Below are positions 55,966 through 64,000 of a stretch of 64,000 bases of DNA, one piece after another. The stretch lies in NCBI GenBank assembly GCA_051648485.1, contig JBOFFH010000144.1, positions 2,042 to 66,041 on the forward strand, given 5' to 3'. Source of the stretch: Fusobacteriaceae bacterium (lineage in GTDB: Bacteria > Fusobacteriota > Fusobacteriia > Fusobacteriales > Fusobacteriaceae). The number at the start of each line of letters is the position of its first letter. Within the stretch, counting starts at the first letter, position 1. The translations under genes were made by a program, and so were the position numbers. A model generated the notes under the pieces. That model saw nothing but the letters and a program-made list of their open reading frames with translations. It was not told where the DNA came from and searched no databases.

Positions 55966-58314
55966 TTAGTTAGGATTTAAAACATAATTTGTAAGTTCAT
56001 TTACAAACTCTCTAGTTTTTCCATTTTTATCATTTACCGGATTAAATTCTACTATATCCACAGAAGTTACAAAGTAATTCTTAAATATAAATTTAAATGT
56101 TTGGAACATCTCTTCAGGAGTGAATCCGTTTCTTACTGGCGTACTTACTCCAGGAGCAAACTCAGGATCAACCGAATCTACATCAAAACTTATGTGAACT
56201 TCATCCACTTGTAAGTAATCTTTAATCTCATCTAAAATTACCTCTAAGCCTTTATGAATAACTTCGTCATAACTTATATATTTAACTCCAAGTTCATCCA
56301 TAAATTCACGTTCTTTATGATCTAAATCACGTGCTCCTAAAACTACCACATTTTTACTTTCTATTTTAGCACCTTCATAAAAACAGTTTACTAAATCACG
56401 GTCTCCATATCCTTGAAGAAGAGCCAAAGGCATTCCATGAATATTTCCAGACGTTGTTATTTCATCTGTATTCATATCCCCGTGAGCATCTATCCAGATA
56501 ACTCCTATCTCTTTCTCTAATGCAACTCCAGATATACTTCCTAAAGCTATTGAATGATCTCCTCCTATTGTTATAGGACGATATCCATCTCTTACTGCTT
56601 GATTTACTTGTTGTGCTAATTTTTCACAAGTATGCAATATCGTATTTTTATATTTTAAATTCCAATCATTGAAGTTTTCTTTTTGTTTCTCCACATCAAT
56701 TATTGTCATTTCATCAAATGTATCCGGGAAATATTCTTGAAGTACATCTATTGAGAACTCAATTCCCGCTTTATTAGCACCCAAGTTCATAGGAACTCCA
56801 AACATTACACTTTTCATTTTTTCAGTGTATATATAAACAGCATCTTCCTCTTCAATTACATTTATGTTTATTAAATCAGGGTCTTCCATGCCTTGAATAT
56901 GAAGTTTAGCATCTTTCAAATCACTAATATAATCTATTGTTTCACGAGTTATACGTTCTCCTGGAACAATAATAGGAATCCCTGGAGGATAAGCCATTAT
57001 CAATTCACCTGAAATTTTACCTTCACTTTCTTCAAAAAGTATTTTATTTTTTTCAGAATAGAAAGCTTCTCTTGGAATTAAAACTAATTCAGGTATAGCA
57101 GGCATTTTTAAAAGCTCTCTATCTATTTTTCTGCCTTGCTCATAAAATCTGTTACTGATATCTTTTAATGCTGCTAAAAGTATTTCTATACTTTCTTCTG
57201 TATCTCCTATAGTTATAAGTCCCAGAACATTATAAAAATCTGAAAGTTCCATTTGAATGTTATAGTCATCTACAAGAAGTGTTTCTAATTCAAACCCTGT
57301 GATTCCCATTTCTTTAGCTGAAATAGTTATTTTTGTGGTATCAAAAGCAAAAATACCTTCACGCCCCAATATCTCTTTTCCAAAAGAATACATTCCTGGT
57401 ATTCTATTTATTTCAGCTCTTAAATAATTAGCAAGTTTTATTGTTTTATCTAACAACTCACGTCCTTCTGTAGCTATATGTCTTCTAGCACAATCTATCG
57501 ATGCAAGTAGTGGATATGATGGAGATGTAGTCTGAAGTAAACTAAGTATTTGCTGCACACGATTTACATCTATTCTATCAGAATTAACATGTAATAATGA
57601 CATTTGAGTCAAAGCTCCCAAAATTTTGTGGGTACTTTGTGCACACATATCTACACCAACATCTACTGCTGAAACTGGTAAATCATCATGAAAATGTAAG
57701 TGTGGCCCATGAGCCTCATCAACTATAATTGGTATATCATATGAATGAACTATATCTGTTATTTTTTTTAAATCTGTTGCTATACCATAATAAGTTGGAT
57801 TTATTAACAATACAGCTTTTATATCCGGATGTTGCTTAAGCATAGTTTCTACCGTTTGAGGCTTAACACCATGAGCTATTCCCAAATTTTCATCTATCTC
57901 TGGATTCATGTACACTGGTATAGCTCCACTTAAAGTGATTCCAGCCGATACTGATTTGTGAACATTTCTTGGCACAAGAATTTTTTCCCCAGAATTAACA
58001 ACTGCCATTATCATGGTTTGAATTGCTCCTGAAGTTCCATTTACTGCAAAAAAACTCTTTTTTACTCCATAAGCATCTGCTACTAATTCTTGAGCTTCTT
58101 TTATACAACTTTTCGGTTGATGAAGTCCGTCAACCATTTTAAAGATAGTCACATCTATTGAAAAAATTCCATTTCCCATAAATTCGTAGTATTCAGGATC
58201 TACTCCTTTTCCTCTTTTATGCCCTGGAACATGAAATGGGGTTATATCTCTTCCCGCGTATACGTCTTTTAAAGTTGAAAAAATTGGCGTTTTTTGTTGG
58301 TCTAGCTTTGACAT
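55966..58314 (-). CDS. Fusion protein: Orn/Lys/Arg decarboxylase (PLP, OKR_DC_1 type) N-terminal, arginase-family ureohydrolase C-terminal
   Basis: The N-terminal roughly 490 aa has FHVPGHKRG, NGTSGA, DEAHG and the PLP-Lys context QSTHK. The C-terminal roughly 290 aa has GGDHSIALG, DAHGDMNT...SGNIHGMPLA and SFDVDSVDP, an arginase Mn-ligand ladder of RocF type. Confidence 0.85.
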   Translation of the reverse strand: MSKLDQQKTPIFSTLKDVYAGRDITPFHVPGHKRGKGVDPEYYEFMGNGIFSIDVTIFKMVDGLHQPKSCIKEAQELVADAYGVKKSFFAVNGTSGAIQTMIMAVVNSGEKILVPRNVHKSVSAGITLSGAIPVYMNPEIDENLGIAHGVKPQTVETMLKQHPDIKAVLLINPTYYGIATDLKKITDIVHSYDIPIIVDEAHGPHLHFHDDLPVSAVDVGVDMCAQSTHKILGALTQMSLLHVNSDRIDVNRVQQILSLLQTTSPSYPLLASIDCARRHIATEGRELLDKTIKLANYLRAEINRIPGMYSFGKEILGREGIFAFDTTKITISAKEMGITGFELETLLVDDYNIQMELSDFYNVLGLITIGDTEESIEILLAALKDISNRFYEQGRKIDRELLKMPAIPELVLIPREAFYSEKNKILFEESEGKISGELIMAYPPGIPIIVPGERITRETIDYISDLKDAKLHIQGMEDPDLININVIEEEDAVYIYTEKMKSVMFGVPMNLGANKAGIEFSIDVLQEYFPDTFDEMTIIDVEKQKENFNDWNLKYKNTILHTCEKLAQQVNQAVRDGYRPITIGGDHSIALGSISGVALEKEIGVIWIDAHGDMNTDEITTSGNIHGMPLALLQGYGDRDLVNCFYEGAKIESKNVVVLGARDLDHKEREFMDELGVKYISYDEVIHKGLEVILDEIKDYLQVDEVHISFDVDSVDPEFAPGVSTPVRNGFTPEEMFQTFKFIFKNYFVTSVDIVEFNPVNDKNGKTREFVNELTNYVLNPN

Positions 58315-60661: not shown

Positions 60662-61111
60662 ATGAAAAAGATTTTAATTTTATTTTTAATTGTATTTTCA
60701 GCTTCTTTTGGAGAAATAGAAGCTTCTATTAAGGAATTCACAAGCTACTATGACAATGGCCAACTTGAAGCAAAAGGAAAGTATATAGATGGAAAAAAAG
60801 TAGGATTTTGGTATATTTTTGATGAAAAGGGTATTTTAAGAGAAGAAATTACTTATATTAATGAAGAAGCTCTTTTCGGAATAAAAACTTTCAATGAAAA
60901 AGGTCTGATTTCTAGTGGTGGTACTATCAAAGAAGGGGTTCAAGAGGGTAAATGGTCATTTTATGACGAACAAGGAAAACTGTTAATAATTATGGAATTT
61001 AAAAATGGAATAAGAGATGGTATTTTTATAGCTTACTCTGAAAAAGGAGTTCCAATTGTAGTTGGTACCTTTGAAAAAAACTCTCTTAAAGAAATTCAAT
61101 CTTTAAAGTAA
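60662..61111 (+). CDS. Secreted MORN-variant repeat protein (YwqK-like)
   Basis: Signal peptide, then repeated G.(K/E)GKxxDGKKVG.W..(F/Y)DE.G motifs (GKYIDGKKVGFWYIFDEKG, GVQEGKWSFYDEQGK, NGIRDGIFIAYSEKG). Confidence 0.6.
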   Translation: MKKILILFLIVFSASFGEIEASIKEFTSYYDNGQLEAKGKYIDGKKVGFWYIFDEKGILREEITYINEEALFGIKTFNEKGLISSGGTIKEGVQEGKWSFYDEQGKLLIIMEFKNGIRDGIFIAYSEKGVPIVVGTFEKNSLKEIQSLK

Positions 61112-61148
61112 AAAAATGAGGCTCTCTCAATTGAGGGCCTCATTTTTT
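61112..61148. terminator. Bidirectional terminator between MORN gene and L,D-transpeptidase-like gene
   Basis: aaaaaatgaggctctctcaattgagggcctcatttttt. Confidence 0.7.
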
Positions 61149-61785
61149 AAATAAATTTTGTTTTATTATGATATTTATAATCAGAACCTACCACATAGAG
61201 AACTGTACCATTTTTTATAATTTCTATTATTTTAGAATTAAGTTCTAAAGGTAAAGCTGGACATCCTAACGTTCTTCCTAAAAATCCATGCTGCAATATA
61301 AATTTTTTACTAACATAATCTGCTCCATGAATTACTATATTTCTACTTTCTGCATTCGAATTTATACCCTCTTCCAATCCTTTTAATCTTAAAGAATAGC
61401 CATAATCTCCATAATAAGTATTACCAGTCACAAAAAATCCTAAAGAAGTTTTATATGAATTAGGATTATTAGAAAAACTTAAAGTCATATTTTTCCCGCT
61501 ATTTTTTCCGTGTGAAACTAAAGATTCAAAAAGTATTTTTTGATTTTTCAAATCTAAAACATAGAATCTTTCTTTTGTAGAAAGTTTTGTATAGTCTATT
61601 ATTACGATTAAATCATTTTTTTTATTTGATATTTTTTCATATCCTTTTAGAGCATTAGAAAACGTTTCAAAGGTTATTTTGTTCTCTAATTTCATTTTAG
61701 AATATAAAAAATTTAAATTTTCAGAGTTTGAAAATAAATTTGAAAACATGCATACGAAAATAAAAAAATAAATATTTTTTCTCAA
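61147..61785 (-). CDS. Murein L,D-transpeptidase catalytic-domain family protein (YkuD_2-like)
   Basis: Signal peptide. IVIHGADYV....L....GRTLGCPALP carries the catalytic His...Cys arrangement of YkuD-type folds. TTG start with SD GGGAGG. Confidence 0.65.
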   Translation of the reverse strand: MRKNIYFFIFVCMFSNLFSNSENLNFLYSKMKLENKITFETFSNALKGYEKISNKKNDLIVIIDYTKLSTKERFYVLDLKNQKILFESLVSHGKNSGKNMTLSFSNNPNSYKTSLGFFVTGNTYYGDYGYSLRLKGLEEGINSNAESRNIVIHGADYVSKKFILQHGFLGRTLGCPALPLELNSKIIEIIKNGTVLYVVGSDYKYHNKTKFI

Positions 61786-61832
61786 AATTTACCTCCCTAA
61801 ATTACAATTTATCCGATGTAATTTTATCACTT

Positions 61833-62345
61833 TTAATTTTTTTTGTCAATATTTAAAATCTTAAAAACATTATCTTTTCCCATATATTCTTCTAAAATAT
61901 TTTTCAGATTCAACAAATCTTTTTCTCCGTAAACCCTTTTACCTATAGTAAAAACCGGAGCTAATTTGCAAGCACCTATACAAGGAACTTTATTTAAAGA
62001 AAAAACACCATCTAAAGTGTGTTCTCCAATATTTATTCCCAGTATTTCTTTTATTAAAACCTCTACTTTTTTAGGATTTTTTTTCTCACATCTATTTCCC
62101 TTACAAATCAAAATGGAAAAAGTTGCTTTTTTAATTTTTCTAAAATAATTATTTCTTTTGATTATATTTTCTATTTTTTCTTTTTCTAAACTTAATTCTT
62201 CACTTAAAAAGTTTATAACTTTTTCTGGAAGATATCCAAAAACTTCTTGGGAAAAATCTAATACTGTCACCAAATTTTCATTTGGTTTTTCTATTTTTTT
62301 TATAAAGTCTTTAATTTTTTCTTTATCATTTTTTGTTAATTTCAT
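61833..62345 (-). CDS. NuoE/HydC-like thioredoxin-fold [2Fe-2S] ferredoxin (orphan)
   Basis: The N-terminal helical part is LDFSQEVFGYLPEKVINFLSEEL. The Cys ligands are C-x4-C (ICKGNRC) and C-x3-C (CIGACKLAP). The SD GAGGTG overlaps the stop codon of the upstream OLD-like gene. Confidence 0.7.
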   Translation of the reverse strand: MKLTKNDKEKIKDFIKKIEKPNENLVTVLDFSQEVFGYLPEKVINFLSEELSLEKEKIENIIKRNNYFRKIKKATFSILICKGNRCEKKNPKKVEVLIKEILGINIGEHTLDGVFSLNKVPCIGACKLAPVFTIGKRVYGEKDLLNLKNILEEYMGKDNVFKILNIDKKN

Positions 62346-62353
62346 TTTTCACC

Positions 62354-63634
62354 TCAATTTTCATAAATTTTTATAATTTTTTCTTTAAGCTTTTCTGGAA
62401 TACTGTAATCTTGACTCATTACATGTTGTAAAGCTATAAAAGGTTTATTTTTATAATTTTTTCTTTCTCTTTTATGGTTATAAATCTCTTCTTCTATATC
62501 GTTTGAAAACTCTAAATAATTTCCAAATTCGTAATCTATTCCCCGCTGGATTTGCTTATTTTTAACATTTGAATTTTTCAACTCTTCTTTTGTACGCCAA
62601 GCGTGATTATCTTTATCATAAACAACTAAATAATTTATTCTAAAACTATTGAGAAGTTTAGAAAATTGAGGAAGAATACTTTTGCTTCCACACTCAATTA
62701 TGCAGTAATCATACCTAAAAACTTCTAAATTTTCCGCCAAATATCCTAAAAGAATTTTATCAGTTTGTCCCTCCACCAGTATTACTTTTTTACTAAAAAA
62801 AAGTTCCCCTCTGTCACCATTTATCCAATAGTTCATATTGAAATTTTTTACTTCATCTCCTGAAAAAAGATTTCCTCTGTATTGAAAAAAACTACTTCTT
62901 CCTAAACTGTTTTTCGCCATACAAATATCTTTGTATTGTTTTAACCCTACAAATCTACTTGAATGAGTTTCAATAGAAATAAAAATCCCTAATTTGCTGA
63001 GCTTTACTAAGCAATTATACAGTTCTTTTTGTTCTTGAGGATTCAAAAACATTTCAGGATGCTCAAATAAAATATAAATATTTTCTATATTTTTTATTTC
63101 TTTTTCTTCAGTATATTTTAAAAAATTTCTAATATTTTCAAAAAGTAAATTTCTAAAAAGTCCTCTACTCACATACGTATCGTTAAACTCTTTATAACTT
63201 TCAGTCACTTTAAAATCACTAAATCTCATTTTTAACTTTTTTAAAAATAATCCTAAGATTTTAGAATTAAAATCTAAATCTGCTACAACATGAAAAAGAT
63301 TTACAGGCTCTAAAAAATTTTTGTACTCTTCTAAAGTTAAACTCAAATCATTCTTCATATAAACAAAAGGAGAATTTTTATCGTATTTAAAAATTTTCAA
63401 TTCTACAACACTTTTGTTTTGAGTTTCAAAAATCCCTTCTATTCTTAGAGGAGGTACTTGTTCTAAAGATGAGTAATTTATATTTTCATCAGGCTTTAAT
63501 AAAAAATTTAAAGCAGAATTTAAAGCAGACTTTCCACTGTTATTGGCTCCTATCAAAATTAAAAAATTGTCCAATGAAAGATAAGTATATTTTATAGATT
63601 TCCAATTTTCTATTTTTATCCATTTTAATTTCAT
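62354..63634 (-). CDS. OLD-family ATP-dependent nuclease-like protein (ABC-type ATPase plus TOPRIM), compact 426 aa
   Basis: Walker A GANNSGKS, Walker B-like ILFEHPEMFLNP, H-loop ETHS, TOPRIM Glu ILVEGQTDK and acidic motif LVVYDKDNH. The start is trimmed to the ATG at 63634 (SD GGGAG), because the longer ORF start lies inside the -10 box. Confidence 0.7.
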   Translation of the reverse strand: MKLKWIKIENWKSIKYTYLSLDNFLILIGANNSGKSALNSALNFLLKPDENINYSSLEQVPPLRIEGIFETQNKSVVELKIFKYDKNSPFVYMKNDLSLTLEEYKNFLEPVNLFHVVADLDFNSKILGLFLKKLKMRFSDFKVTESYKEFNDTYVSRGLFRNLLFENIRNFLKYTEEKEIKNIENIYILFEHPEMFLNPQEQKELYNCLVKLSKLGIFISIETHSSRFVGLKQYKDICMAKNSLGRSSFFQYRGNLFSGDEVKNFNMNYWINGDRGELFFSKKVILVEGQTDKILLGYLAENLEVFRYDYCIIECGSKSILPQFSKLLNSFRINYLVVYDKDNHAWRTKEELKNSNVKNKQIQRGIDYEFGNYLEFSNDIEEEIYNHKRERKNYKNKPFIALQHVMSQDYSIPEKLKEKIIKIYEN

Positions 63635-63672
63635 TTTTTTCTCCCTATTGCATCTAATCGTAATCCTATTCA

Positions 63673-63701
63673 ATTCTACCTTCTAAAAAAAACGTTGTCA
63701 A
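63673..63701 (-). promoter_or_regulatory. Near-consensus sigma-70 promoter for the OLD-like/NuoE-like pair
   Basis: Minus strand TTGACA (63701-63696), 17 nt, then TAGAAT (63678-63673). Confidence 0.6.
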
Positions 63702-63793
63702 TAAAAAAAGAATTCTAATAATAAGTTAATATTATCAAAATTCTTATAAATTTTATCTGAATTAATTAAATATTTAATTTCTTAGTAACTTTT

Positions 63794-64000
63794 TTACCAA
63801 ACGTAGTTTGCAGCTTCTCCAAAACCTGAGCTAGTAGAGTAGTATTTTGCATCAACTATTTTGTCTTGATACTTTAAAACTAAACCTGTTGTAGCTTTTA
63901 TTGCTTCGTTACTAAGTTTATTTTCATCACTTCTATTATAAACTTGAGAATTAGAAGTGTCGTCTATATGATAACCATTTTTCTTATATCTGTAACGTTC
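63794..64000 (-). CDS. SpoIID/LytB-domain protein, 3' part (5' end outside window); ends abruptly after the conserved ...VW motif
   Basis: The minus-strand frame reads ...DTSNSQVYNRSDENKLSNEAIKATTGLVLKYQDKIVDAKYYSTSSGFGEAANYVW*, which resembles the core of the SpoIID/LytB domain. Confidence 0.6.
   Translation of the reverse strand, partial: ERYRYKKNGYHIDDTSNSQVYNRSDENKLSNEAIKATTGLVLKYQDKIVDAKYYSTSSGFGEAANYVW

What the first reader, a model, noticed from the sequence alone, without database searches (positions are those of the whole stretch)
61833..63701. Compact OLD-type ATPase-TOPRIM nuclease translationally coupled to an orphan NuoE-like [2Fe-2S] protein: candidate two-gene defence or stress module
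Seen in the sequence:
- A 426-aa protein carries an ABC-type ATPase head (GANNSGKS, FEHPEMFLNP, ETHS) and a TOPRIM tail (ILVEGQTDK, VVYDKDNH).
- It is driven by its own TTGACA-17-TAGAAT promoter.
- Its TGA stop is followed by only 8 nt before the ATG of a 170-aa NuoE/HydC-like thioredoxin-fold ferredoxin (C-x4-C ... C-x3-C). The SD (GAGGTG) of that second gene begins immediately after the stop, so the two are almost certainly co-translated.
- No NuoF/hydrogenase/Nuo partner genes are nearby.

Established knowledge: OLD-family nucleases act in phage exclusion (P2 Old, Gabija GajA, retron-associated OLD; the split ATPase/TOPRIM pair in PARIS).

Inference: I know of no described OLD system that uses a [2Fe-2S] redox protein as partner. 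The pair could be a redox- or iron-sulfur-gated nuclease system. The locus also looks accessory:
- The upstream SpoIID-like gene stops abruptly.
- The downstream genes are small envelope genes.

Caveat: the adjacency could be fortuitous.
Basis: partly seen in the sequence, partly recalled or inferred. Interest (0 to 1): 0.7.

Follow-up and report, generated by a model that had tools for sequence, protein, structure and literature searches.

The report
Core OLD nuclease beside orphan ferredoxin
The two genes are real and co-transcribed, but the OLD-type nuclease is a conserved chromosomal gene of the whole family Fusobacteriaceae that nearly always lacks this iron-sulfur neighbour, so the pair is probably not a dedicated defence module.

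Summary
On the minus strand, a 426-aa ABC-ATPase/TOPRIM protein of the OLD family (63634..62354) is followed after 8 nt by a 170-aa NuoE/HydC-type [2Fe-2S] protein (62345..61833). Both sit behind a near-consensus promoter.

- **The OLD gene is not accessory.** Orthologs of 425-450 aa occur in 62 species-level Fusobacteriaceae genomes. Their tree follows taxonomy, dN/dS is 0.06-0.09, and the locus is syntenic. None was found in phage collections.
- **The ferredoxin is rarely its neighbour.** It lies beside OLD only in the window's clade (98% and 78% relatives) and, on the opposite side, in one other lineage (L088). It is adjacent in none of 62 genome loci and 80 metagenome loci. A sister lineage with 81% OLD identity lacks it through a clean ~500-nt indel.
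- **It belongs to a clade of orphan HydC-like genes.** Other members sit next to acpS, next to rluD, or at a former hydCBA hydrogenase locus.
- **The 8-nt gap is ordinary here.** 19 of 43 same-strand gene pairs in the window are 15 nt apart or less.

Best reading: a compact Class-1-like core OLD nuclease with a hitch-hiking orphan ferredoxin. A lineage-specific partnership is not excluded (about 0.2).

The parts
62354..63634 (-). Compact OLD-family ATPase-TOPRIM nuclease gene (426 aa). Key residues: Walker A K35, Walker B E191 (followed by H192), H-loop H224, TOPRIM E288 and D340/D342.
   Evidence: Pfam OLD-like_TOPRIM, AAA_15 and AAA_21 all exceed their cut-offs. PADLOC Old scores 3.5e-35. 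The best PDB sequence hit is Class 1 Ts OLD 6p74 at 3.6e-12. The AF2 model has pLDDT 84 and pTM 0.79, and its best fold match is 6p74 (E 9e-22, TMq 0.69). Catalytic residues are invariant in 31 orthologs.
61833..62345 (-). Orphan NuoE/HydC-type thioredoxin-like [2Fe-2S] ferredoxin gene (170 aa; ligands C81, C86, C122, C126). This copy carries a 12-aa C-terminal extension compared with the 158-aa relatives.
   Evidence: Pfam 2Fe-2S_thioredx 5.6e-28, full length. Below the NCBIfam NuoE cut-offs. Best PDB hit is T. maritima HydC 7p5h_C at 7e-24. The four Cys are invariant. dN/dS is 0.18 against L007 and 0.42 against L098.
62346..62356 (-). Junction: OLD stop TGA, an SD (GAGGTG) that overlaps the stop, and 8 nt before the ATG of the ferredoxin gene.
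   Evidence: Read directly from the sequence. The same junction occurs in L098. In L007 the gap is 1 nt.
63673..63701 (-). Sigma-70-type promoter TTGACA-17-TAGAAT upstream of the OLD gene.
   Evidence: Promoter scan, 11 of 12 matches. This is a consensus match only; function is not shown.
61147..61785 (-). YkuD_2 (L,D-transpeptidase-like, with a signal peptide) gene. It is the widely conserved neighbour of the OLD gene.
   Evidence: Pfam YkuD_2 7.6e-66. It is adjacent to OLD orthologs in 19 of 62 genome loci, in tandem or divergent orientation, and lies within the flank in 24 of 80 metagenome loci.
61821..61849 (-). Promoter-like site TTGACA-17-TAAAAT (with TG) for YkuD_2. Its -35 box lies inside the extended 3' end of the ferredoxin ORF.
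   Evidence: Promoter scan, 11 of 12 matches.
61111..61148 (.). 16-nt inverted repeat flanked by A and T runs, between the convergent MORN and YkuD_2 genes. It is a likely bidirectional terminator that ends the OLD-ferredoxin-YkuD_2 transcription unit.
   Evidence: Inverted repeat I14, 94% complementary. A terminator-like site is predicted at 61124-61137. No terminator-like site was found between the ferredoxin and YkuD_2 genes.
63793..64000 (-). 3' end of an upstream SpoIID-like gene, cut by the window end.
   Evidence: Translation of the fragment. The full-length 528-aa SpoIID gene occupies the same position in L098.

Best explanation
The 426-aa gene encodes a compact, Class-1-like (stand-alone) OLD-family enzyme. 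It has an ABC-type ATPase head with a shortened helical insert, fused to a TOPRIM metal-dependent nuclease. It is a vertically inherited chromosomal gene of the family Fusobacteriaceae, not an island-borne accessory gene.

Inferred from characterised OLD enzymes: ATP binding and hydrolysis by dimerised heads gates nicking or cleavage by the TOPRIM site (E288, D340, D342). Its cellular role, whether constitutive anti-phage surveillance as for P2 Old, Vc OLD and YbjD, or a housekeeping DNA transaction as for archaeal Cran1, is not resolved here.

The 170-aa gene encodes a stand-alone thioredoxin-like [2Fe-2S] ferredoxin. It descends from the HydC subunit of the HydABC [FeFe] hydrogenase and belongs to a Fusobacteriaceae clade of orphan HydC-like genes that keep their four cysteine ligands without HydA/HydB.

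In the window's lineage this gene lies in the short spacer between OLD and its conserved neighbour YkuD_2, so it is transcribed from the OLD promoter. The adjacency most likely reflects inherited local gene order in a very tightly packed genome. It is probably not a dedicated OLD-ferredoxin system.

Shown: domain content, conservation, distribution, synteny and the indel. Inferred: enzymatic mechanism, [2Fe-2S] binding, co-transcription and lack of a functional interaction.
For: 1. OLD identity.
- Pfam and PADLOC hits.
- The nearest solved sequence and fold is Class 1 Ts OLD 6p74.
- No UvrD-like helicase, reverse transcriptase or split ATPase/TOPRIM gene is called beside it in the Pfam-annotated loci.

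2. OLD is core.
- The top homolog hits are all Fusobacteriaceae proteins, mostly 425-450 aa; one cluster is seen on 432 contigs.
- 62 species-level genome loci span Fusobacterium nucleatum, necrophorum, varium, ulcerans and perfoetens, Cetobacterium, Propionigenium and Psychrilyobacter.
- The NJ tree groups sequences by genus.
- dN/dS is 0.063 and 0.086, like housekeeping neighbours.
- There are no hits in 50,697 phage records or in IMG/VR.
- The locus is syntenic (OLD-YkuD_2-MORN-...-decarboxylase-RpiB-HIT) with relatives at 50% OLD identity.

3. The partner is sporadic.
- An adjacent NuoE-like gene occurs only in the window, L098, L007 and L088-91.
- None is adjacent in the genome loci L011-L072 or the metagenome loci L099-L178.
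- L004 and L088 share 81% OLD identity and align on both flanks. About 500 nt holding exactly the ferredoxin ORF is replaced by about 33 nt in L004.
- No OLD residue distinguishes paired from unpaired orthologs.

4. Origin of the ferredoxin.
- Cetobacterium has hydC-hydB-hydA between FBA and an M20 peptidase/MreC. L092 has only an orphan 2Fe-2S gene at that position.
- Other orphans sit after acpS, overlapping its stop, or before an rluD-like gene.
- The orphans form one clade in 59 of 60 bootstraps.

5. The tight spacing is the norm here.
Against: - Every member of this particular ferredoxin subfamily with known context is next to an OLD ortholog (window, P0121/L098, P0123/L007, P0124/L088-91). 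The subfamily is monophyletic in 60 of 60 bootstraps, and P0124 is the only 50%-identity cluster with E<1e-30 among 1.84 billion representatives.
- The two arrangements differ: OLD->Fd in the window's clade and Fd->OLD in L088. Adjacency therefore survived a rearrangement, or arose twice.
- The ferredoxin is under purifying selection over the longer comparison (dN/dS 0.18), and its ligands are intact.
- Whether genomes lacking the adjacent copy carry it elsewhere could not be determined. The pattern-based genome scan was narrow.
Confidence: 0.6

Rival explanations
1. Lineage-specific functional partnership. In the window's clade and the L088 lineage, the orphan [2Fe-2S] protein was recruited as a redox- or iron-sensing regulator (or adaptor) of the core OLD nuclease. 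Cluster oxidation or loss would then gate ATPase or nuclease activity.
For: - Co-transcription from one promoter, with gaps of 8 nt, 1 nt or 39 nt.
- All context-known members of this ferredoxin subfamily are OLD-adjacent, in two different gene orders, across lineages whose OLDs are only 50% identical.
- The ferredoxins (47% identical) have diverged about as much as their OLD partners (50%). This fits long co-inheritance.
- The Cys ligands are intact, and dN/dS is 0.18.
Against: - More than 140 OLD ortholog loci lack the partner, including a sister with 81% identity and identical synteny.
- Paired OLDs carry no signature residues.
- The ferredoxin evolves 2-7 times less constrained than OLD.
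- Sister orphan ferredoxins are just as tightly coupled to unrelated genes such as acpS.
- There is no PADLOC model for it and no literature precedent for OLD with a 2Fe-2S partner.
- Tight spacing is generic in this genome.
Confidence: 0.2
2. The ferredoxin gene is a functionless relic: a HydC remnant drifting towards pseudogenisation that happens to be transcribed with OLD.
For: - dN/dS is 0.42 against the 98% relative, compared with 0.02-0.17 for most neighbours.
- The C-terminus is altered and extended in the window copy.
- The gene was lost cleanly in sister lineages.
- No HydA or HydB is present in the window.
Against: - The ORF is intact in four lineages spanning 47% identity, with invariant ligands and 56 invariant columns.
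- The longer-range dN/dS is 0.18.
- The whole orphan clade persists across genera.
Confidence: 0.12
3. The pair is a horizontally mobile anti-phage defence island module.
For: - OLD-family membership and the PADLOC Old/GajA hits.
- Longer (~590 aa) relatives are patchily distributed in Bacteroidota, CPR bacteria, Campylobacter and Glaesserella.
- In one related sub-lineage, type II CRISPR-Cas lies beside or near the OLD gene.
Against: - The phylogeny is vertical and the gene is present family-wide.
- The flanks are conserved housekeeping synteny.
- No flanking repeats or mobile-element genes were found.
- GC content is 24-25%, only slightly below the 25-34% of the preceding 9 kb of the window.
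- There are no phage or IMG/VR relatives.
Confidence: 0.03

Closest known systems
Class 1 OLD family nucleases (Thermus scotoductus OLD, PDB 6p74; P2 Old; Vibrio cholerae OLD; E. coli YbjD/OldB)
   Same: - A stand-alone gene with an N-terminal ABC ATPase (Walker A Lys; Walker B Glu equivalent to Ts E276; H-loop His) and a C-terminal TOPRIM with Glu and DxD.
- 6p74 is the best sequence match and the best fold match (PMC7049728).
- Like YbjD, it is a chromosomal gene in ordinary surroundings (PMC13261556).
   Different: - It is 426 aa, against 528-590 aa. The segment between the N-terminal strand/P-loop and Walker B is 142 aa, against about 300 aa in 584-aa relatives. The dimerisation insert is reduced to about three helices in the model.
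- The residue after the Walker B Glu is His, Tyr or Asn in the window's clade and its nearest sister clades, and Glu elsewhere.
- It is conserved across a whole bacterial family, whereas Class 1 OLDs are reported as rare and patchy (0.45% of genomes; PMC13261556).
Cran1, the Sulfolobales OLD-family ATPase/nickase involved in cell-cycle progression (PMC12796447)
   Same: An OLD-family protein conserved across a whole lineage, apparently vertically inherited rather than island-borne. Cran1 also sits in an operon with a small gene whose function appeared unlinked.
   Different: Cran1 is archaeal, belongs to a separate clade, and has a helical insertion in its TOPRIM domain. No essentiality or cell-cycle data exist for the Fusobacteriaceae protein. 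The resemblance is in distribution only.
Gabija GajA (Class 2 OLD), retron-associated OLD (Class 3) and PARIS AriA/AriB (Class 4)
   Same: They share the ATPase-TOPRIM fold. GajA and retron Eco8 structures rank second to nineteenth in the fold search, and many GajA HMMs match.
   Different: There is no GajB/UvrD-like helicase, no reverse transcriptase/msd, and the domains are not split, in any locus examined.
HydC / NuoE / HndA / HoxE 24-kDa-type [2Fe-2S] subunits of HydABC hydrogenases and complex I
   Same: A full-length 2Fe-2S_thioredx domain with the C-x4-C...C-x3-C ligands. T. maritima HydC is the best PDB hit at 7e-24. It is 39-44% identical to Cetobacterium HydC, which is encoded in a hydC-hydB-hydA operon.
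   Different: No HydB/NuoF or HydA partner lies in the locus or the window. It scores below all NCBIfam NuoE-type cut-offs. It falls in a separate, faster-evolving clade of orphans.
Stand-alone thioredoxin-like [2Fe-2S] ferredoxins (Clostridium pasteurianum and Aquifex aeolicus Fd4 type; cited from my own knowledge)
   Same: A small soluble protein with the same cluster-binding fold, encoded without a flavoprotein partner.
   Different: Those proteins are about 100-110 aa and lack the N-terminal helical domain. This protein keeps the full NuoE/HydC-type length. I did not test the relationship directly.

Membership tests
OLD family (ATPase + TOPRIM) | N-terminal ABC-type ATPase with a Walker A Lys, a Walker B acidic residue and an H-loop His | tested here: met
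   AAA_15 and AAA_21 exceed their cut-offs. K35 and E191 are invariant and H224 nearly invariant in 11-31 orthologs. E191 aligns to the essential Ts OLD residue E276 (PMC7049728).
OLD family (ATPase + TOPRIM) | C-terminal TOPRIM domain with a catalytic Glu and the DxD motif | tested here: met
   OLD-like_TOPRIM 1.5e-16, matching model positions 1-67 of 67. E288, D340 and D342 are invariant.
Class 1 OLD | Stand-alone gene, with no UvrD-like helicase (Class 2), no retron RT (Class 3) and no split ATPase/TOPRIM (Class 4) | tested here: met
   No such neighbour is called in the Pfam-annotated loci. The ATPase and TOPRIM domains are fused in one ORF.
Class 1 OLD | Four-helix dimerisation domain inserted in the ATPase, as in Ts OLD | tested here: inconclusive
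   The insert is shortened: 142 aa against about 300 aa between the P-loop region and Walker B. The AF2 model shows helices 125-137, 146-150 and 157-177 at moderate pLDDT. The oligomeric state was not modelled.
Class 1 OLD as an anti-phage defence gene | Patchy distribution in variable neighbourhoods, defence islands or mobile elements | tested here: not met
   The gene is present across the family, its tree is congruent with taxonomy, and its synteny is conserved. No phage or IMG/VR hits were found.
Class 1 OLD as an anti-phage defence gene | Protection against phage infection | not testable with these tools
   This needs phage challenge in a Fusobacterium or a heterologous host.
Gabija | A GajB (UvrD/PcrA-like helicase) gene immediately downstream of GajA | tested here: not met
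   The downstream genes are 2Fe-2S_thioredx and YkuD_2 in the window, and YkuD_2, CHAP or others elsewhere.
NuoE/HydC/HoxE 24-kDa subunit | Thioredoxin-like fold with four Cys ligands for a [2Fe-2S] cluster | tested here: met
   PF01257 scores 98.1 bits against a cut-off of 24.8, over its full length. C81, C86, C122 and C126 are invariant. Cluster binding itself was not tested.
NuoE/HydC/HoxE 24-kDa subunit | Encoded with, and bound to, a NuoF/HydB-type flavoprotein | tested here: not met
   No HydB or HydA homolog in the 64-kb window, and none in the flanks of L007, L088 or L098. Canonical Cetobacterium HydC does have HydB and HydA downstream.
NuoE/HydC/HoxE 24-kDa subunit | Score above the curated NCBIfam equivalog or subfamily cut-offs | tested here: not met
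   NuoE 82.8 against 141; TIGR01958 74.3 against 142.4; FdhG 83.3 against 198; HoxE 74.8 against 224.
Proposed OLD + [2Fe-2S] two-gene system | Co-occurrence of the two genes across diverse lineages | tested here: not met
   They are adjacent only in the window, L098, L007 and L088-91. No adjacent copy is found in 62 genome loci or 80 metagenome loci, nor in several Logan/ENA loci.

The most novel reading that the evidence does not exclude
In two small, uncultured Fusobacteriaceae lineages, an orphaned hydrogenase subunit (a HydC-derived [2Fe-2S] protein) has been co-opted as a redox- or iron-sensing partner of a domesticated, family-wide OLD nuclease. That would make an iron-sulfur-gated OLD enzyme with no described counterpart. 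The evidence that leaves this open is that every context-known member of this ferredoxin subfamily is OLD-adjacent, in two different gene orders.
Probability: 0.12. Interest if true: 0.7.

Novelty: new variant of a known kind. Interest (0 to 1): 0.3.

Why it matters
If the best explanation is right, the proposed defence module dissolves, but two modest points remain.

1. Fusobacteriaceae carry a compact OLD-family ATPase-TOPRIM enzyme that behaves like a core gene. This includes the clinically important F. nucleatum and F. necrophorum. It adds a bacterial case to the emerging idea that some OLD proteins are conserved chromosomal genes with roles beyond classical island-borne defence (archaeal Cran1, E. 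coli YbjD). It is also genetically testable in F. nucleatum.

2. HydC-like [2Fe-2S] proteins survive as orphans after loss of the hydrogenase catalytic subunits. This raises the question of what these orphans do.

The case also shows that, in very compact AT-rich genomes, a gap of a few nucleotides between genes is poor evidence of functional coupling.

Tried and rejected
- **Genome-collection scan with the ferredoxin alignment A1.** 599 pattern matches, none confirmed. The patterns were too narrow, so this says little about whether the gene is present elsewhere in those genomes.
- **Metagenome scan with the ferredoxin alignment A4.** Nothing found.
- **Word-index homolog search with the ferredoxin alone.** It found only three close relatives. 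The exhaustive HMMER search was needed to find P0124.
- **Remnants of a ferredoxin gene in unpaired syntenic loci.** tblastn found none.
- **Flanking repeats or mobile-element signatures around the pair.** Only AT-rich chance repeats.
- **Compositional anomaly.** GC is 24-25% at the locus against 25-34% in the preceding 9 kb, which is not diagnostic.
- **Phage association of OLD.** None. The ferredoxin's three hits at 33-39% identity to unannotated 'Bacteriophage sp.' faecal contigs were not pursued, because they look like ordinary NuoE homologs.
- **Signature residues in paired versus unpaired OLDs.** None.
- **Literature on OLD with 2Fe-2S, or on Fusobacterium OLD.** Nothing relevant.
- **Walker B His192 as a marker of pairing.** Considered and rejected, because unpaired relatives also carry it (P0003, P0005, P0012).
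- **Co-folding of the two proteins.** Not possible with the tools available.
Full report
**1. What is in the sequence**

Both genes lie on the minus strand.

*The OLD-like gene.* The ORF runs 63634..62354 and encodes 426 aa from an ATG preceded by GGGAG. An in-frame TTG at 63673 would overlap the promoter, and no homolog uses it. The protein carries GANNSGKS (K35), FEHPEMFLNP (E191), ETHS (H224), ILVEGQTDK (E288) and VVYDKDNH (D340, D342).
- Pfam gives OLD-like_TOPRIM 1.5e-16, AAA_15 3.4e-13 and AAA_21 3e-7, all above their cut-offs.
- PADLOC gives Old 3.5e-35 and many GajA models.
- The nearest solved sequence is the Class 1 OLD of Thermus scotoductus, 6p74, at 3.6e-12.
- An AlphaFold2 model built on 31 orthologs has pLDDT 84 and pTM 0.79.
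- Its best fold match is 6p74 (E 9e-22, TMq 0.69), ahead of the GajA and retron Eco8 OLD structures.

*The NuoE-like gene.* The ORF runs 62345..61833 and encodes 170 aa.
- It matches Pfam 2Fe-2S_thioredx over the whole model, at 5.6e-28.
- It has C81-x4-C86 and C122-x3-C126.
- It resembles T. maritima HydC most closely (7p5h_C, 7e-24).
- It is below every NCBIfam NuoE/HoxE/FdhG cut-off and has no PADLOC match.

*Signals and context.*
- The TTGACA-17-TAGAAT promoter at 63701..63673 is present.
- The junction is TGA-GGTGAAAA-ATG, so the SD GAGGTG overlaps the stop codon.
- tblastn with Cetobacterium HydB and HydA finds nothing in the 64-kb window.

**2. The OLD-like gene is a core gene of Fusobacteriaceae**

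- The homolog search returned 451 proteins. The best 120 are all Fusobacteriaceae proteins, mostly 425-450 aa. They include clusters seen on hundreds of contigs of F. varium and F. ulcerans, and clusters from Cetobacterium.
- A scan of one genome per GTDB species gave 62 Fusobacteriaceae loci at 37-63% identity. They cover F. nucleatum, necrophorum, varium, ulcerans and perfoetens, Cetobacterium somerae, Propionigenium maris and Psychrilyobacter.
- The same scan then jumped to about 590-aa OLDs scattered in Bacteroidota, CPR bacteria, Campylobacter and Glaesserella.
- An NJ tree of the compact proteins groups them by genus.
- The C-terminal half is extremely conserved, and the catalytic residues are invariant.
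- dN/dS is 0.063 against the 98% relative and 0.086 against the 78% relative, like the neighbouring housekeeping genes.
- No relative exists in 50,697 phage records or in IMG/VR.
- Compactness comes from the ATPase insert. The window protein has 142 aa between the P-loop region and Walker B, where a 584-aa relative has about 300 aa.

**3. The locus is syntenic, not accessory**

- In relatives with only 50-60% OLD identity (L004/L014, L016, L020, L088) the gene order matches the window. It reads OLD, YkuD_2, MORN, a 782-aa decarboxylase, a 163-aa protein, RpiB and HIT.
- The SpoIID-like gene upstream is a complete 528-aa gene in the 98% relative.
- The widely conserved neighbour of OLD is YkuD_2. 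It lies in tandem 10-65 nt downstream in 3 species-level genome loci, and divergently 42-376 nt upstream in 16. That is 19 of 62 genome loci.
- YkuD_2 also lies within the flank in 24 of 80 metagenome loci.

**4. The ferredoxin is a sporadic neighbour**

*Where it is adjacent.* An adjacent NuoE-like gene is found only in these places:
- the window;
- L098 (OLD 98% identical);
- L007 (OLD 78%; 1-nt gap);
- L088-L091, where it lies immediately upstream of OLD with a 39-nt gap (OLD 50% and ferredoxin 47% identical to the window's).

*Where it is absent.*
- It is not adjacent in any of the 62 genome loci or the 80 metagenome loci.
- It is absent from L008 (65%), L010 (54%) and L179 (60%).
- L088 and L004 share 81% OLD identity and identical synteny, and their DNA aligns on both flanks.
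- About 500 nt holding exactly the ferredoxin ORF in L088 corresponds to about 33 nt in L004, with no remnant.
- No OLD residue separates paired from unpaired orthologs.

**5. Where the ferredoxin comes from**

- An exhaustive HMMER search of 1.84 billion representatives found a single cluster with E<1e-30, P0124, which is the L088 protein. Next came orphans at 36-37% identity.
- A profile search then recovered canonical HydC/HndA proteins. These include a 164-aa Cetobacterium protein at 39-44% identity.
- In Cetobacterium that gene heads a hydC-hydB-hydA operon between FBA and an M20 peptidase/MreC.
- In L092 the same flanks enclose only an orphan 156-aa 2Fe-2S gene. This is consistent with loss of the catalytic subunits.
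- Other orphans sit upstream of an rluD-like gene. In Cetobacterium a 139-aa orphan sits directly after acpS, overlapping its stop, 2.7-4.2 kb from the OLD gene.
- All keep the four cysteines.
- In an NJ analysis the orphans form one clade (59 of 60 bootstraps) and the OLD-adjacent ones a sub-clade (60 of 60). Long-branch attraction among the orphans cannot be excluded.

**6. Weighing the two-gene-module idea**

*In its favour.*
- All context-known members of this ferredoxin sub-clade are OLD-adjacent, in two different orders.
- Their divergence (47% identity) parallels that of their OLD partners (50%).
- The gene is under purifying selection over the longer comparison (dN/dS 0.18).

*Against it.*
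- The OLD enzyme functions without the ferredoxin in essentially the whole family, and in close sisters.
- The ferredoxin is markedly less constrained than OLD (dN/dS 0.42 against 0.06 at short range).
- Sister orphans are just as tightly coupled to unrelated genes.
- The 8-nt gap is ordinary in this window. 19 of 43 same-strand pairs are 15 nt apart or less, and the window is 92% coding.
- In relatives, OLD is just as tightly followed by a periplasmic L,D-transpeptidase-like gene, which shows that tight packing does not imply a shared function here.

I put the hitch-hiking explanation at about 0.6, a lineage-specific partnership at about 0.2, a decaying relic at about 0.12, and a mobile defence module at about 0.03.

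**7. Mechanism and comparison with known systems**

By homology to Ts OLD, E191 corresponds to the essential Walker B residue E276, K35 to K34 and H224 to H310 (PMC7049728). The TOPRIM Glu and DxD are intact. An ATP-gated metal-dependent nickase or nuclease is the most likely activity, but this is inferred.

The protein meets the Class 1 criteria of a stand-alone fused gene. It departs from Class 1 in three ways: its shortened insert, its variable residue after the Walker B Glu (His in the window), and its family-wide vertical distribution. Class 1 OLDs are reported to be rare (PMC13261556).

The closest precedents for a lineage-conserved chromosomal OLD are E. coli YbjD/OldB (PMC13261556) and archaeal Cran1 (PMC12796447). 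Cran1 is essential, acts in cell-cycle progression, and sits in an operon with a gene that proved functionally unlinked. I found no paper linking OLD proteins to 2Fe-2S partners, and none on the Fusobacterium protein.

**8. Verdict**

The most likely reality is a compact, core, Class-1-like OLD nuclease with an orphan HydC-derived ferredoxin that happens to share its transcript in a few lineages. I rate it a new variant of a known kind, with interest 0.3.

Noticed in passing
window 61147-63634; L001-L004, L014, L016, L018-L039 and other loci: The OLD ortholog and a YkuD_2 (L,D-transpeptidase-like) gene are adjacent in many Fusobacteriaceae. They lie either in tandem (10-65 nt apart) or divergently (42-376 nt apart). 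The adjacency has survived an inversion, yet no functional link between a cytoplasmic nuclease and a periplasmic enzyme is apparent.
   Followed up: partly
L092:4548-5018 compared with L096/L097:6001-10094: An orphan 156-aa HydC-like gene lies between FBA and an M20 peptidase/MreC. That is exactly where Cetobacterium has hydC-hydB-hydA. It looks like an in-place remnant of a lost electron-bifurcating [FeFe] hydrogenase.
   Followed up: partly
L005:1479-2263 and the equivalent position in 13 other Cetobacterium loci: A 139-aa 2Fe-2S_thioredx gene starts on the last base of acpS (holo-ACP synthase). It is conserved 2.7-4.2 kb upstream of the OLD ortholog. This is a second orphan ferredoxin tightly coupled to an unrelated gene.
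   Followed up: no
window 63058-63063 (codons E191-H192); alignment A2: The residue after the Walker B Glu is the catalytic Glu position of canonical ABC ATPases. It is His in the window's clade, Tyr or Asn in some relatives, and Glu in F. varium and Cetobacterium. ATP turnover may therefore differ among orthologs.
   Followed up: partly
window 61833-61871: The window's ferredoxin ORF has a 12-aa C-terminal extension compared with the 158-aa relatives. The extension reads through the -35 box (61844-61849) of the YkuD_2 promoter.
   Followed up: no
L179:1108-5804 and L008:1-2923: In the 60-65% OLD relatives, a type II CRISPR-Cas locus lies directly upstream of the OLD gene (divergent, in L179) or about 3 kb from it (L008). 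In L179 Cas9 is called as two ORFs and is followed by Cas1 and Cas2. This is the only defence-like neighbourhood seen.
   Followed up: no
window 55966-58314 (-): A 782-aa ORF whose ortholog in L004 (84% identical) carries Pfam hits for an Orn/Lys/Arg decarboxylase (OKR_DC_1) followed by an arginase/agmatinase domain. It is apparently a decarboxylase-ureohydrolase fusion for polyamine synthesis.
   Followed up: no
window 61111-61148: A 16-nt near-perfect inverted repeat flanked by A and T runs lies between the convergent MORN and YkuD_2 genes. It is a likely bidirectional intrinsic terminator.
   Followed up: no
GenBank MT835590.1, MT839894.1 and MT835800.1 (hits H1-H3): Three unannotated 'Bacteriophage sp.' contigs from human faeces encode NuoE-like proteins 33-39% identical to the window's ferredoxin. 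They may be misbinned bacterial DNA, or phage-borne auxiliary genes.
   Followed up: no
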